A DNA stretch of 64,000 nucleotides from Octopus vulgaris (Eukaryota). Under the pieces are notes generated by a model. It saw only the letters and a list, made by a program, of their open reading frames with translations. It searched no databases and had not been told where the DNA came from. Where the stretch lies: contig OX597822.1 of the NCBI GenBank assembly GCA_951406725.2, positions 41,292,001-41,356,000 of the forward strand, written 5' to 3'. The position numbers and the translations under genes were made by a program. Positions 7,874 through 55,620 of this stretch are shown here, piece by piece; the stretch's first letter is position 1, and the number at the start of each line of letters is the position of its first letter.

Positions 7874-8036
7874 AGAAAATGGAATAAACGACGTTCTTTA
7901 TTTTTAAACCACAATTGTTTCGACACATGCTTACAGCAGTGGTACATTGGTGAGAGGTTGTGTACTACAGGTGAAAAAATGTGTCGAAACAATTGTAGAG
8001 ATTTAAAAATAAAGAATGCTGTTCATTCCATTTTCT
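7874..8036. repeat. Foldback inverted repeat (~55-bp arms) carrying GAAACAATTGT
   Basis: 7874-7928 is an imperfect reverse complement of 7979-8036; sits beside a (GATA)n tract. Confidence 0.8.
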
Positions 8037-8261
8037 ATCATCTATTCGTTAACATAAACTCTACGGATACTATGGATCTCTTGGTATATATCCAGTAGCA
8101 GAAGCATTTCCACTGTATGATGACATCAGGTAGCCATTATCTGTGGACGGGCTTTGCATAGCATTCTACAAGGTTTCTACCCGAATCTTATTTAACTCTC
8201 TCTCTCTCTCTCTACATATGTGTGTTGTTTTATCCTTTATCCTTTATGAGGAACAGTTGTT

Positions 8262-8560
8262 TGTTCCTTCTCGAGCCACGCCTGGCTCATAAGGGCCGGT
8301 TTCCCGGTTTCCTTGGCGTATAGGTTCCCCACCTGGACGGGACGCCGGTCCGTCACAGATGAGCTGTCAGATGCAGGAGGAAAGAGTGAGAGAAAGTTGT
8401 GGCGAAAGAGTCAGCAGAAGATCGCTATTACCTTCTGCCGGAGCCACGTGGAGCTTAGGTGTTTCGCTCATAAACACACACATCGTCCGGTCTGAGATTC
8501 GAACCCACGATCTCTCGACCGCGAGTCCGCTGCTCTACCACTTGGCCATGTGCCTCCACA
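8262..8560 (-). mobile_element. tRNA-derived SINE family C
   Basis: Reverse complement of the copies at 47875 and 50529; A box TGGCCAAGTGG, B box GGTTCGAATC, 3' GACCGGCGTCCCGTCCAGG. Confidence 0.85.
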
Positions 8561-8956
8561 CATATGTGTGAGTGCGTGTGTGTATGGAATTTGGCAACGT
8601 TTCACCGTGTTAAATGTCAAAGGAGGCCACTCACTAGATCCATTTCCCCAGAAACAGAGAGGAGTTGAGCGAGAAGCTGGTAGCTTGTCATCATTGGGGA
8701 AAAAAAAAGAATGATACGTTACTAGACCCGACATAGAGAGTATGATTTAAGAAAAAAACAAGGGAGTACGATTTGGTTGCTACTTCTAGCATAATAAATA
8801 TTACAATTAAAGTTTGTAGTAATTTATGTGAATTGTTTCTAAAACGACAAATATTTAAGAAAGTTATGGTGAGTTCTTAACATGTAGGTCCCTCTCTCTC
8901 TGGTATAGCCCTCTCCTCTATAATAAACAAACAAATAAAAACAACTATGTACTTAC

Positions 8957-50528: not shown

Positions 50529-50770
50529 GGTGGAGGCACATGGCCTAGCGGTTAGAGCAGCGGACTCGCAGTCGAGGGATCGCGGGTTCGAATCTCGGAC
50601 CGGGCAATGTATGTGTTTATGAGCGGAACACCTAATCTCCACGCGGCTCCGGCAGAAGGTAATGGCGAACTTCTGCTGACTCTTTCGTCACAACTTTCTC
50701 TCATTCCTTCTGCATCTTGCAGCTCACCTGCGATGGACCGGCGTCCCGTCCAAGTGGGGAACCTACATAT
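50529..50770 (+). mobile_element. SINE family C
   Basis: A box TGGCCTAGCGG, B box GGTTCGAATC; homologous to 8262-8560. Confidence 0.85.
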
Positions 50771-53700
50771 TAGACTAAAAGGATTTATGACTAACAGGAA
50801 ACTCAACAGAGAAATGATGCACCTAGAAAGAGAAGCGGGTGATACATTTAACAGTCATGACAAGGTACTAACTACACTAGAAAGTTATCCAGCAAATATA
50901 GATGATTGGGCCCATAGCTTTCTATGGTATATTTTTACATTTTGATCTTTAAACGGAGACTCACAAACAAATGAATCCGTGGTCTGCTAGCAAATATACC
51001 CTAACAACTTGCAGACGGGTGTGTGTATGTATACTCGCCCTACATATTTTAATGGGTATGCATTTGGGCCCCTCATACAGACAACACCCAAGATTACCCA
51101 GGATGGGGTAGTAATGAAATAAAATGTATAACATATTTGGTAAACTATAAAAGAACAGTTTATAGCCGTGTGAAAACGGATAAAGCGTTGACACACACAC
51201 ACACACGTAAACACATACATTTGTATGTATCTAAATACAAATGCATACATGTACACACATACGCACAAACATATGTGTATATATATATATATATATATAT
51301 ATATATATATATATATATATATATATATATATATATATATATATATATATATATATATATATATATACATACATATACATATACATATACATATACATAT
51401 ATATATATATATACATATCCATATACATATACATATATACACGTTTCTCCGCAGATCACCATCCTCACTACAAGTTCTCGACGACCATGACGACAATAAA
51501 CACGATGATGATGATGATGATGGTGATGATGATGATGATGATGATGATGATGGTGATGATGATGATGATGATGATGAGGAGGAGGAGGAGGAGGATGACG
51601 ATAATGATGAAAGGATTATAGACTTATGGTGGCAGCAAGCAATAAATATAAATATTTGCATACATACACCAACATCAACACACACACACACACACACACA
51701 CACACACACACACACACACACACACTGGCATACTAATGCACACACATATATTGCTTACTAAGAGTTGAAATTATTGTGGTTATTATTACGAATCACACAC
51801 AAACACACATCCAAGTATATGTGTGTGTGTGCATAAGTATATCTGTATCTATAGATATGTGTATATATGTACCTATATATATGCGAGTGTGCGCGCATGC
51901 GTATGTGTATGTCTGTATGTATTTAATTTTTATTATTATTATTATTATTATTATTATTATTATTATTATTATTATTATTATTATTATTATTATTATTATT
52001 ATTATTATCATTATTATTATCATATATACATATATATACAATATGTGGCTATGTGTGTGATGTGTGTGTATGCATATATATATATATATATATATATATA
52101 TATATATATATATAGAGAGAGAGAGAGAGAGATAGATAGATAGATAGATATACACACACATACATACATATATACATACATACATATTTATATCTACATA
52201 GATGCATGTTTAAATGCAAACATATGTCCATATATAACACAGTAGAAAGACATACTATATCTACACACATAAACATATATATATATATATATATATATAT
52301 ACACACACACACACAAACCTTACACCTCTATCTAATTTCGAGTTTATTGCTTCTATAAAATGGTGTTAAGCGATTCTATAAAAAGAAGAGATTACCTCCT
52401 TATTGAAAGCACTGTATTCTTATAAATACACTGGGGTTACCTTACTCAGAAAATAGTAGGGGGCAGTATATGTGTGCCCTAGAGTAAAGAGCAATAAAAT
52501 GACATCGACACACTGGGTTTCCCTTTTCTCTTAAGTAGGGGGCATTTGAAGTGGGTTCGACAGAAGTGAGAACTAAAATGTAATAAACCCACCAGGGTTG
52601 CATTCTCCAGGAAACGGTGGAGATATATTCGGGCCACTGGCGTTCATTTCTTTTATTTTTTAATGTAATAATGAACAGTATTTTCTCCTAACTAGAATTC
52701 AATACACACCTACTGGTACACATGCATATACACATCCTTGTATATATATATCACATACACATGTAAAGCAAGATGTGGATGCAAATATAATCATGCAAGT
52801 AAAACAGCGCTTTTTTAAACCATCGTGAGTCCAATTCATTTCTGAATTTTGTTAGATTTAAATGATCCTATTTTTTGTACATGTGGTGGTTGCAAAGATT
52901 TTTGTTTATTAAAGGATGAAACATACTTATACTACTCATTCTTGAAGATTATAAGTTTAAAATGTTTTCATGTATTATACGTCTGGCGTTTGCAAAAAGG
53001 ATCTTTGTTTATTAAAGTATCGTTAGCAAACAAACTTCATATTTCTCTATTGGATATAATTGGTATGGCTTTTTATGGTTGTATGGTTTGGCTCTTGATA
53101 AGATTAACTATAAGATGTAAATCGTTTGTTTGAGTTCTTTAGCTGCCATGCGTATGCAGTGAGTGAGGTGGAAAACTTTCTTATATTATCTCTAAACTTA
53201 AAGTTTATGGAAACGCATGGCTTGGTGATTAAGGTACTGCCATCTTGATCGTAAGACAATGATTTCGGTTCCAGGATTTAGTGTTCTTGAGCAAAACGCT
53301 TCTTTTCCTGTTGCCTCAATTCACTTTGCTGGGGAAAATGGTACTCCTGCGAGGAGCCGACGACCCGTCGAGTGGGGAAGTATATAGGTTACAGAATCCG
53401 AGAAACCGGCTAAATGACTCTATATCTCTAGGGATGGATCTTCATTCTTTATGCGTGTGTGCGCGCATGTGTGTGTGTGTGTGTGGAGTGAACACTGTAT
53501 GACAAGTTTCCCACTGTTTCCCTCCACCGAATTCAAATCAGGAGAAATTTAGTGAATCCGAGACGGTTATGGAAGAAAAGAATTACCCAAGGTGCTGCGC
53601 AGTTTGATCGTACTCAGCACGACGTGAACTTCTCTACAGGACTATGCTCGCTTCGCTTTGTTTCAGAGTGACTCTTAAATATACATTAATAGTAACTAAG

Positions 53701-54619
53701 AACAAACATGAGCTTTGATCAACAATATGACTTTAGGACATGAGTGAAGCTCTGATCCCACTAATGCTAGCTAACCAGGCGATGCTGTGTTGGTGGTAAT
53801 GGAATATCTCAGAAAACAATTTAGCTGAAAACTGGTCAATGACCAGAAAGATTATTGAAGATACTGTTTAGCATCCGGTCATTCTTCATCTAAAAGACCA
53901 CTGATCAAAACATTTCAGCCGTGACCACCCTTGGCTTTAGGTATATCTAAAACCTCATTAGCCTAATATTCTTCAGTTTTTAGAGCGTATAGCGTATATT
54001 ATGAAAAAGAATAGACTTCCATTTCTAAACGGTCGTGTCACAACTGTTACTCTGATCATTCATCAAGTATTAATGGATTTCTTTTATCTAAGTTCAATCA
54101 TGGTCGTTCTACAAAGTTTGTTGTATTGATGTGATATTGATTTCTAGAAAGTTTGGAGAAGAGATTTTTATGATGTAGTGGATCACAATAGCTGACTGGC
54201 ACGTACTTCATCGACCCTCTGTTGCGAGATTTCTGGGCCAGTGTTCGTCCTTGCAGTAACCACATTTTTTCTCGTTAATGTCCGAGGCCTTTTCTATTCT
54301 TATTTAGGTTGCATTATTATTTCGTTTCATTATTATTGTTGTTGTTGCTGTTGCCGTTGTTTTTTGCTGTTGTTGTTGTCATCGTCCTCATTGTTGTTAT
54401 TTGTTCTGGAGAAAGTGTTAGTATCCATGGTCGATGCAAACCAACCGTGACAAGGTCAACGCTGATATTTTACTTAGACACACGATATAAGGTTTTAACT
54501 GAAGTTAAAGTATACATATATACGATCTGTGGCTGTGTGGTAAGAAGCTTGCTTCCCAACCACATAGTTATTATTTGGGACAAGGGAAGTAATTGCTCAT
54601 GTTTTGGCGGGTAGAGTAT

Positions 54620-55620
54620 AAACAAATATACAAAAACTCAAAAGCTAGAGTAGTGACAGGAAATATGTACAGTGATGGATATGGGATCATAAAATATATA
54701 TTGAGTTGGTAATGAAGTCATATTTAGGCAAGTTCTGCATTTTTCGATAAATTTTCTTTATTCAAACATTGTTGTACAGAAGTTGTTTCTTTGCGCTGGT
54801 AGATGGGGAAAACTGTGAAGTTGGTTGATTTTTACCAGCACATCTCTCTATGTGTTCACTCAAAGGAATCTGTCTGTACTTTGGGAAACGTGTCTGTTCC
54901 TTATGTAGTGTGGTTTACCGTCTAAGTGCCATACATGTCTGTCCTATATAGTTATATCTACAACCTGAGCAAGTTATAACATAAATTAGATTCTCGGGAG
55001 CACAAGTGAAGTTCGTTTTAATTTTGAACCTCCCTTCTTGCTTGAATAGCAATTATGAGCCTTCCAGTAGCTTGGGGCATGTTCCACACTTTTGGACGTC
55101 CACATTTTTTAACCATTAGTTTCGTGGTTGTATAGAGCTTCGCATTTCTCAGAAGTCATTTCAGCGATTTGTGTTGCTTTTTATTTTTGATGAATTTATG
55201 TGCTTTCAGAATGCTGTTCATTTTTGGATCCCTAGTGAACATAGGTAGATTGTGAACAACAATGCTGTATGCTTCATTGTTTCATGGGTTGTGCGTTGAT
55301 ATATACGGTTGTATTTTGAGATGAGATGTGGAGTTAGGTTTTGTTACCTTTAGTGTCTTAATGCCTAATTTCTTGGCATAAAATATGTATGCATGTATAT
55401 ATGTATATATATGTGTGTATGTACATATATGTATATAGGGAGAATTCACAAAAAAAGACGAGGATAGGTGGTGTAGACAACAAACAGATGTATTAATATA
55501 ACGCTCGGGAAGTGAAGAAGTCTTTAACGTTTCGAGCCTACGCTCTTCCACAGAAAGGAACACAGAAAGAAACAAAGAGAGAAAATAAAGAATAAATGTA
55601 GTGGCTAGCGATGTTCATGT
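54620..55620 (-). mobile_element. Penelope-like element remnant: GIY-YIG endonuclease plus terminal-repeat-like segment
   Basis: Minus strand KKCGRP..GTCPKL...NFTCAPENLIYVITCSGCRYNYIGQT...LSEH is a Cys-rich linker plus GIY-YIG. The adjacent 55437-55620 carries a hammerhead-like CTGTGGA-A-GAGC/GCTC-GAAACGTTA. Confidence 0.8.

What the first reader, a model, noticed from the sequence alone, without database searches (positions are those of the whole stretch)
7874..55560. Recurring foldback mini-elements built around minimal hammerhead-ribozyme motifs
Seen: five short inverted duplications with no obvious similarity to each other (7874-8036, 11606-12158, 14915-15042, 29541-29625, ~30473-30602) all fold back near a GAAAC-type motif. 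The motif is usually followed by a palindrome and an NUH triplet: GAAACAATTGTA, GCAACCGGTA, GAAACAGCTGTA, GAAACAGTTCTAGTC, GAAACCGATGGTC. Two non-foldback motifs lie on the minus strand at 50301-50345 and 55521-55557. Several sit in (TA)n or (GATA)n. Established: Penelope-like elements (PLEs) carry minimal type I hammerheads with palindromic helix III in their terminal repeats and often have inverted terminal segments; two PLE GIY-YIG remnants are in this window. Inference: several PLE/retrozyme-like families here leave ORF-less head-to-head foldbacks whose inversion point is tied to the ribozyme, which would seed long dsRNA hairpins in introns.
Basis: partly seen in the sequence, partly recalled or inferred. 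Interest (0 to 1): 0.75.

Follow-up and report, generated by a model that had tools for sequence, protein, structure and literature searches.

The report
Penelope stubs record capped RNA start
These short DNA hairpins are head-to-head stubs of Penelope-type jumping genes; in the two youngest families the halves pile up at one base, often with an extra G, which likely marks the capped start of the element's RNA being copied twice at each insertion rather than a cut by the ribozyme.

Summary
All five fold-backs and both extra motifs are real, and each belongs to its own genome-wide repeat family whose intact copies show a type I hammerhead layout. Three of the five fold-back families (2, 4, 5) are joined to Penelope-like (PLE) RT/GIY-YIG ORFs. 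Head-to-head stubs with a one-sided tail are a known PLE layout, and this scan has noted them before in this and other genomes. The addition here: in position-ordered samples, 38 of 71 (family 4) and 30 of 73 (family 2) arms stop at or just inside one base. That base is the start of hammerhead helix I, 29 nt after a TATA box. Solo family-4 copies carry an untemplated G before it in 53 of 89 cases (control 0 of 35), the known cap signature. No family-4 arm stops at the cleavage site. Zero-spacer palindromic joints and a tail on only one arm point to two cDNAs primed near the 5' end of a capped sense RNA. So the tie to the ribozyme is positional, not catalytic; family 3 shows no such pile-up. 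Cleavage, expression and dsRNA effects were not shown.

The parts
7874..7964 (-). Element 1, inverted arm (no tail); joint at a 4-nt microhomology (7961-7964) inside the long helix II loop
7961..8170 (+). Element 1, direct arm: helix II 3' strand, GAAA 7986-7989, palindromic helix III, UA 7996-7997, 3' end and tail; the CUGANGA half is absent
11606..11706 (-). Inverted duplicate of the right flank (100% identical to 12058-12158); target-site rearrangement, not element sequence
11749..11854 (-). Element 2, inverted arm (no tail), ending at the inferred +1; zero-spacer joint in the ATAT palindrome 11851-11854
11851..11998 (+). Element 2, direct arm from inferred +1 (11851): U3-A8 core 11856-11862, GCAA in place of GAAA 11876-11879, CCGG, UA 11884-11885; tail about 11957-11998; young PLE family with a Cys-rich linker
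12058..12158 (+). Original right flank (another repeat; looks like an RTE LINE end, label recalled), preceded by a 19-nt direct duplication 12028-12065
14915..14957 (-). Element 3, inverted arm (internally deleted); joint at the helix II 5' strand 14951-14957 (7-nt microhomology)
14951..15172 (+). Element 3, direct arm: helix II, GAAA 14973-14976, CAGCTG, UA 14983-14984, 3' end and tail (right end approximate); core absent
29541..29563 (-). Element 4, short inverted arm; joint through helix I complementarity
29558..29695 (+). Element 4, direct arm from inferred +1 (29558): complete hammerhead (helix I 29558-29563 / 29603-29608, core 29564-29570, GAAA 29583-29586, GUA 29600-29602); tail 29626-29695
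30411..30512 (-). Element 5, inverted arm carrying the tail (internally deleted; left end approximate)
30511..30627 (+). Element 5, direct arm without tail: core 30515-30521, long helix II, GAAA 30576-30579, helix III damaged by a deletion
50254..50420 (-). Non-foldback copy of a U3-A8 hammerhead family (motif 50301-50349; core mutated in this copy; copy runs on beyond 50420)
54789..55404 (-). Decayed PLE ORF remnant (RT C-terminus, linker, GIY-YIG); 81% identical to an ORF piece next to a family-1 fold-back elsewhere (L026)
55466..55610 (-). Non-foldback copy of a family with a hammerhead-like motif (55521-55557) whose core reads CUGUGGA (ends approximate)

Best explanation
The hairpins are dead-on-arrival insertions of several Penelope-like retrotransposon families, each made of two short copies of the element's ribozyme-bearing end joined head to head, and they likely form when the reverse transcriptase primes twice near the 5' end of the capped sense RNA and both cDNAs run off at the cap. 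Shown: families, ORF links for families 2, 4 and 5, tail on one arm only, the pile-up of 5' ends at one base in families 2 and 4, TATA at -29, the untemplated G, zero-spacer joints. Inferred: (1) Pol II starts at the first base of hammerhead helix I. (2) The endonuclease cuts both strands of a (TA)n target and each end primes a cDNA, one at each of the two tail-bounding start sites of the copy nearest the RNA 5' end. (3) After about 70-150 nt the cDNAs reach the cap, often gaining a C. (4) Their 3' ends anneal through the self-complementary first four bases (AGCT in family 4, ATAT in family 2) or, less often, through helix I, helix II or chance microhomology, and are filled in. The stubs lack the TATA box, and a perfect fold-back would pair each ribozyme with its own antisense copy, so they are predicted to be neither promoters nor active ribozymes.
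For: Family 4, first 71 of 4866 tail hits by position: 18 arms end exactly at +1, 38 at +1..+11, none at -1..-5; 38 of 62 at risk against 13% expected from the upstream rate (p about 6e-19); 46 of 71 are fold-backs of at most 330 nt. Family 2, 73 of the first 80 of 403 tail hits: 30 end within -5..+10, 30 of 58 at risk against 8% expected (p about 8e-19). Base before +1 in all 89 genome-wide matches where the family-4 start follows ATAT: G 53, C 15, T 13, A 8; the native base there is T (22) or C (2) in 24 long copies, all with TATAAAT/CATAAAT at -29 (the regex allowed -29 to -32). Control at an internal position: G directly before in 0 of 35, one base further off in 1. Family 2, 50 listed of 55 exact near-+1 joints (counted by hand): 27 four-nt overlaps, 11 two-nt overlaps, 9 with a single G/C between two complete arms, none with a single A/T there, 1 blunt, 2 other; TATAAG starts at -29 (counted by hand). 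Untemplated 5' G is the accepted cap sign in L1 and SVA (PMC4859970). Tail on the second arm in 0 of 46 (family 4) and 2 of 34 rows, one locus (family 2). In the helix-I class the tail is on the short arm in 19 of 24, which one cDNA folding back cannot give. Arms agree at 131 of 134 subfamily-diagnostic comparisons over several haplotypes. ORF links: family 2: RVT_1 above cut-off, GIY-YIG 22 bits against cut-off 22.6; family 4: four loci, same orientation; 23% identical to the family-2 protein, E 8e-7; family 5: four loci. In vitro, a PLE protein cuts both strands, starts at two internal sites bounding the tail, and uses uncleaved RNA (PMC11167929).
Against: The pile-up and the G were shown in only two of five families. 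Family 3: 0 of 30 arms at the ribozyme edge, 4 near -45, some probably deletions. Family 1 ends are scattered; family 5 ends cluster loosely 4-34 nt before the core (16 of 30, a similarity-ranked sample). Three of the five window copies (1, 3, 4) belong to minority joint classes. 36 of 89 solo starts lack the G; a terminal-transferase C at any RNA end would look the same as a cap. The control position is partly confounded because its native neighbour T matches the (TA)n flank. Family 2 has a second discrete 5' end at -44..-47 in 7 of 73 arms, upstream of a TATA box, which the model does not explain. Some copies carry an upstream repeat reaching past +1 and then the ORF (L279, L285), so longer templates exist. 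The family-4 ORF had no RT or GIY-YIG Pfam hit. ORF links for families 1 and 3 rest on one locus each.
Confidence: 0.7

Rival explanations
1. The ribozyme sets the inversion point: reverse transcription stops at the cleaved RNA end or stalls on the folded hammerhead, and the cDNA folds back there.
For: Joints lie at or in the ribozyme. Helix-I (29 exact copies) and helix-II classes (9 of 40 best hits, ranked by likeness to such a joint) exist. Solo starts at the cleavage site number 14 against 4 at a matched TA-preceded site.
Against: 0 of 71 and 2 of 73 arms end at the cleavage site; the peak is on the far side of the whole ribozyme, has a hard edge, and carries G. The 14 can also be tiny fold-backs through a local GAAG/CTTC hairpin. 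Ribozyme mutants did not change insertion in vitro (PMC11167929).
Confidence: 0.1
2. Self-priming of one molecule (an antisense RNA, as proposed in PMC3846280, or one cDNA snapping back) creates the palindromic joint.
For: Palindromes at joints; arms nearly always share a haplotype; stuttered joints show re-priming.
Against: 27 of 50 family-2 joints have no loop at all. The tail is often only on the arm that would be copied second (19 of 24). Solo copies carry the G on the sense side.
Confidence: 0.12
3. They are non-autonomous MITE- or retrozyme-like elements that spread as units from a fold-back master.
For: Hundreds to thousands of copies; some joints recur exactly (27 of 50; 29 copies).
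Against: Joints vary base by base, recur on several haplotypes, and the tail switches arms; stubs lack the TATA box; no head-to-tail arrays in the samples, apart from two local duplications (L094/L095, L311).
Confidence: 0.05
4. Assembly artefacts from fold-back long reads, or later repair hairpins at fragile (TA)n.
For: Element 2 and its outer flank are 100% palindromic; recent flank hairpins occur near some insertions.
Against: One-sided tails, the G, and arm divergence in older copies (82% in element 1) are not expected from read chimeras or repair.
Confidence: 0.03

Closest known systems
Endonuclease-positive PLE insertions with an inverted 5'-truncated copy and a one-sided tail (PMC8557442, PMC3846280; passages read)
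   Same: Head-to-head inverted copy at the 5' end, tail on one end, palindromes at the joint, microsatellite targets, hammerhead in the pLTR.
   Different: In families 2 and 4 the ORF-less stub is the commonest product and stops at one base with TATA at -29 and an extra G. The passages read do not report this, and PMC3846280 favours self-priming on an antisense template. Tails of families 1, 3 and 4 (about 70-130 nt) exceed the 30-40 nt described.
Minimal type I hammerheads of PLEs (PMC4209133; first two of four parts read)
   Same: Core boxes, extra base before helix II, palindromic helix III, U3-A8 variant, pairs of motifs on opposite strands 100-700 bp apart.
   Different: Family 2 has C at position 13, family 3 mostly C at position 4, motif 7 has U at position 6; helix I begins at the inferred cap in family 4.
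Anolis Poseidon element PAc in vitro (PMC11167929; main text read, supplements not seen)
   Same: Two internal RT start sites bounding the tail, both strands cut, uncleaved template; product length set by the RNA 5' end.
   Different: That work does not describe head-to-head genomic products or cap copying in the text read; its hammerhead overlaps the ORF start.
L1 twin priming and 5' untemplated G (PMC4859970; passages read)
   Same: Two priming events at one target, joined by microhomology; G from the cap.
   Different: L1 twin priming inverts one part without duplicating it; here the same short leader is duplicated.
Animal non-LTR retrozymes (bioRxiv 10.64898/2026.07.22.740005; abstract only)
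   Same: ORF-less, hammerhead-bearing, derived from PLE ends.
   Different: Retrozymes are tandemly organised; these are single head-to-head pairs with variable joints.

Membership tests
EN+ Penelope-like element insertion | End joined to an RT plus C-terminal GIY-YIG ORF (families 2, 4, 5) | tested here: met
   family 2; family 4, by similarity only; no Pfam hit; family 5, tblastn
EN+ Penelope-like element insertion | End joined to an RT plus GIY-YIG ORF (families 1, 3, motifs 6, 7) | tested here: inconclusive
   one locus each for families 1 (L026) and 3 (L071); not established for motifs 6 and 7
EN+ Penelope-like element insertion | Inverted 5'-truncated copy adjacent to the 5' end | tested here: met
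   53 of 71 and 49 of 73 arms have an inverted copy upstream; 12 of 30 in family 3
EN+ Penelope-like element insertion | Optional tail on one end, equal to the stretch before the ORF start | tested here: met
   tail runs into the ORF in L279 and L285
EN+ Penelope-like element insertion | AT-rich or microsatellite target | tested here: met
   (TA)n on the left in 46 of 46 and 32 of 34, on the right in 44 of 46 and 34 of 34
EN+ Penelope-like element insertion | Target-site duplication | tested here: inconclusive
   hidden by (TA)n; a 19-nt duplication lies beside element 2
Neptune clade (family 2) | Cys-rich linker between RT and EN | tested here: met
   linker seen in the L150 translation; definition in PMC3846280 section 10
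Neptune clade (family 2) | Phylogenetic placement with Neptune RTs | not tested
   no tree built
Type I hammerhead ribozyme | CUGANGA and GAAA..UH core with three helices in family copies | tested here: met
   families 1, 4, 5 canonical; motif 6 U3-A8; helices read by eye
Type I hammerhead ribozyme | Canonical core in families 2, 3 and motif 7 | tested here: not met
   A13C, mostly U4C, A6U; activity of such variants unknown here
Type I hammerhead ribozyme | Rfam gathering score | tested here: not met
   best: Hammerhead_3, 18.9 bits against 48.5, E 0.069, family 5; no hammerhead row for families 3 and 4 or among the 150 of 504 rows shown for the window
Type I hammerhead ribozyme | Self-cleavage | not testable with these tools
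   needs an in vitro assay
Non-LTR retrozyme | Tandem head-to-tail organisation | tested here: not met
   not seen in 71 + 73 + 30 sampled arms apart from local duplications
Non-LTR retrozyme | Circular RNA | not testable with these tools
   only assembled contigs were available
MITE-like non-autonomous unit | Fixed ends and joint copied from a master | tested here: not met
   joints and tail side vary across haplotypes

The most novel reading that the evidence does not exclude
PLEs integrate by a built-in double-priming route: transcription starts on the first base of the hammerhead, the RNA begins with a four-base palindrome, and two cap run-off cDNAs from the two cut strands anneal through it. 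The inverted pLTR would then be the normal way a PLE insertion is closed, the stubs would be the genomic equivalent of retroviral strong-stop DNA, and the hammerhead would be placed to cut the capped leader off its own mRNA.
Probability: 0.35. Interest if true: 0.75.

Novelty: new member of a known kind. Interest (0 to 1): 0.5.

Why it matters
How PLEs make their inverted ends is stated as open in PMC3846280 (antisense self-priming against a sense template) and later steps are called unvalidated in PMC11167929. The G before +1, the TATA spacing in two unrelated families and the one-sided tails favour a capped sense template primed twice, and give exact predictions for the existing in vitro system. 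They also map PLE transcription starts from DNA alone. With thousands of such hairpins, many in introns, they are a possible source of dsRNA, but nothing here shows an effect on the host.

Tried and rejected
Rfam: the window scan was swamped by microsatellite miRNA matches; small scans gave nothing above gathering. A strict type I descriptor found one window hit, element 5. Single-strand folding of the ribozymes was no better than shuffles (z -0.7 to +0.3), as expected for minimal motifs and not evidence either way. Cap-G tests for families 5 and 3 returned 2 and 3 distinct loci, too few; family 1 was not tested. The excess of solo starts at the cleavage site (14 against 4) is confounded and not used. 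Sequencing runs: no RNA holder listed on record; contigs cannot show starts; the step in summed contig depth near +1 in one run is not a copy number and is not used. PDB search with the family-4 ORF: 0 matches. A second GIY-YIG remnant was sought by tblastn, tblastx and a motif scan and not found. The paper on dimer-cleaving PLE hammerhead variants was not held; I did not use it. The tabulation stopped early and its patterns for families 3 and 5 were too loose; only the top rows were read.

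
Full report
Setting. The window is G000:C9:41292001-41356000 of a 2.8-Gb animal genome. The microsatellite load and repeats suggest an octopus (recalled, and said in earlier scan notes; not tested). A minus-strand gene has an Activin_recp exon at 8957-9235 and a transmembrane-like exon near 5994-6551; BAMBI-like is my recalled label. 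Spliced contigs of two runs guessed to be RNA join 9235 to an exon at C9:41446627, so everything from 11606 to 55560 lies in one intron of about 145 kb, and element 1 in the next.

Observation. The motifs and fold-backs are there. Each query returned a multi-copy family; exact tail patterns count 4866 (family 4), 403 (family 2) and 140 (family 3) places, with 0 for the reversed controls. In 80 unrelated by-catch fold-backs the GAAA+palindrome+UH motif is enriched but rare (6 of 80 against 32 of 1600).

Ribozymes. Intact copies show type I layouts. Family 1: 6-bp helix I, CUGANGA, long helix II, CAAUUG, UA. Family 3: mostly CCGAUGA, 7-bp helix II, CAGCUG, UA. Family 4: 6-bp helix I, CUGAAGA or CUGAUGA, 3-bp helix III, GUA; subfamily changes fall mainly at core position 7 and in loops. 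Family 5: CUGAUGA, long helix II, CCGAUUGG, UA. Motif 6: U3-A8 core, a variant described in PMC4209133. Family 2: U3-A8 with GCAA for GAAA in the copies read. Motif 7: CUGUGGA. None reaches an Rfam threshold. Cleavage was not tested. The window copies of elements 1 and 3 lack the core.

Link to PLEs. L150 holds a 765-aa frame with RVT_1, a Cys-rich linker and GIY-YIG between two family-2 arms; in L279 and L285 the tail runs into the ORF start. A more distant ORF lies upstream of family-4 ends in the same orientation in L302, L312, L318 and L337; it is 23% identical to the family-2 protein but has no matching Pfam hit. Family 5 shares ORF end and 3' UTR in four loci. Families 1 and 3 have one suggestive locus each. 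One ORF remnant lies in the window.

Where the arms stop. To avoid picking copies like the window's, I sampled by tail pattern in positional order. Family 4, first 71 hits (one is a local duplicate): 18 arms begin exactly at the first base of helix I, 38 within the first 11 bases, none in the 5 bases before, none at the cleavage site; 46 are fold-backs of at most 330 nt. Ends are uncertain by a few bases where microhomology overlaps, and long arms are lower bounds. Family 2, 73 of the first 80 hits: 30 within -5..+10, 2 at the cleavage site, 7 at -44..-47 on a variant leader. The 7 left out had been fetched earlier; three of them stop at about +1..+3, three run on upstream, and one was not inspected. 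Family 3: no pile-up at the ribozyme (0 of 30). Families 1 and 5 were similarity-ranked samples; 1 is scattered, 5 loosely clustered before the core.

What marks that base. In both young families a TATA-like box starts 29 nt upstream (by hand). All 89 genome-wide places where the family-4 start follows ATAT plus one or two bases were listed: the base before +1 is G in 53, although long copies have T or C there (a few of the 89 are neighbouring pairs). At an internal control position G is directly adjacent in 0 of 35. In family 2, 9 of 50 listed joints have one G/C between two complete arms and none a single A/T. Untemplated 5' G is taken as cap copying in L1 and SVA (PMC4859970). I infer a capped sense RNA that starts at helix I.

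Why two cDNAs. Both families begin with a four-base palindrome, and 27 of 50 family-2 joints overlap in it with no loop, which one folded strand cannot do directly. The tail is on one arm only and, in the helix-I class, mostly on the short arm (19 of 24). Arms share a haplotype at 131 of 134 comparisons, over several haplotypes, so each stub is made anew, usually from one source. This fits the in vitro PLE results: both strands cut, two start sites bounding the tail, uncleaved RNA used (PMC11167929). The joining step itself is inferred.

The window copies. Element 2 is the dominant class (both arms to +1). Element 4 starts at +1 and is joined through helix I (29 exact copies). Element 3 is joined through helix II, element 1 through four bases in the helix II loop, element 5 near helix I with the tail on the inverted arm. 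The ribozyme helices thus supply microhomology in a minority of events.

Against what is known. Inverted 5'-truncated copies, one-sided tails and (TA)n targets are described (PMC8557442); palindromic joints were read as self-priming, possibly on an antisense template, with the question left open (PMC3846280); opposite-strand hammerhead pairs were noted (PMC4209133). Drosophila Penelope has a TATA-less internal promoter and an intron before the hammerhead (PMC2377424; PMC4209133), so the geometry here is not universal. Paper searches (listings, with the papers named read as stated) showed no report of cap-G run-off stubs in PLEs; the library lacks most subscription papers and supplements were not seen. 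Earlier scan notes describe the same class in this and other genomes, two with a copy-the-leader-twice reading; a word search for cap, TATA and untemplated G found none. My reading was stated before I saw them.

Verdict. Real, ordinary in kind (PLE stubs), with a useful mechanistic record in two young families. Class confidence about 0.95; mechanism 0.7; interest 0.5.

Noticed in passing
window 11606-11706 and 12058-12158; also near L207, L220, L281, L295, L321: Recent inverted duplications of flanking DNA beside PLE stubs; PLE insertion may rearrange its target, but the background rate was not measured.
   Followed up: partly
L203, L212, L214, L220, L266, L272, L297: Family 2 has a variant leader with a second discrete 5' end at -44..-47, upstream of its TATA box; nothing further upstream is shared.
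   Followed up: partly
L173, L205, L211, L284, L315, L331: Stuttered joints: short pieces near the 5' end are copied two or three times, as if the RT re-primes repeatedly at the template end.
   Followed up: no
L202, L280: Family-2 fold-backs whose centre is a piece from 300-400 nt upstream in the 3' UTR, joined to a truncated end.
   Followed up: no
L172, L180, L182: The two arms differ at one subfamily-diagnostic site each, always to an allele present in the family; possibly two source RNAs.
   Followed up: partly
   Followed up: no
window 57275-57379, 25048-25590, 43866-44314: Further inverted pairs without the motif; the last is a pair of common interspersed repeats.
   Followed up: no
window 47276-47308 (-), 48112-48144 (+), about 8305-8325 (-): Another repeated motif with GAAACCGG twice in tandem, loosely hammerhead-like.
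   Followed up: no
window 11876-11879: A young, ORF-linked family keeps GCAA in place of the hammerhead GAAA box, with a very short helix I: either a dead ribozyme in a successful element or an untested variant.
   Followed up: partly
window 21778-22666: Tandem array of a 47-nt unit, about 19 copies.
   Followed up: no
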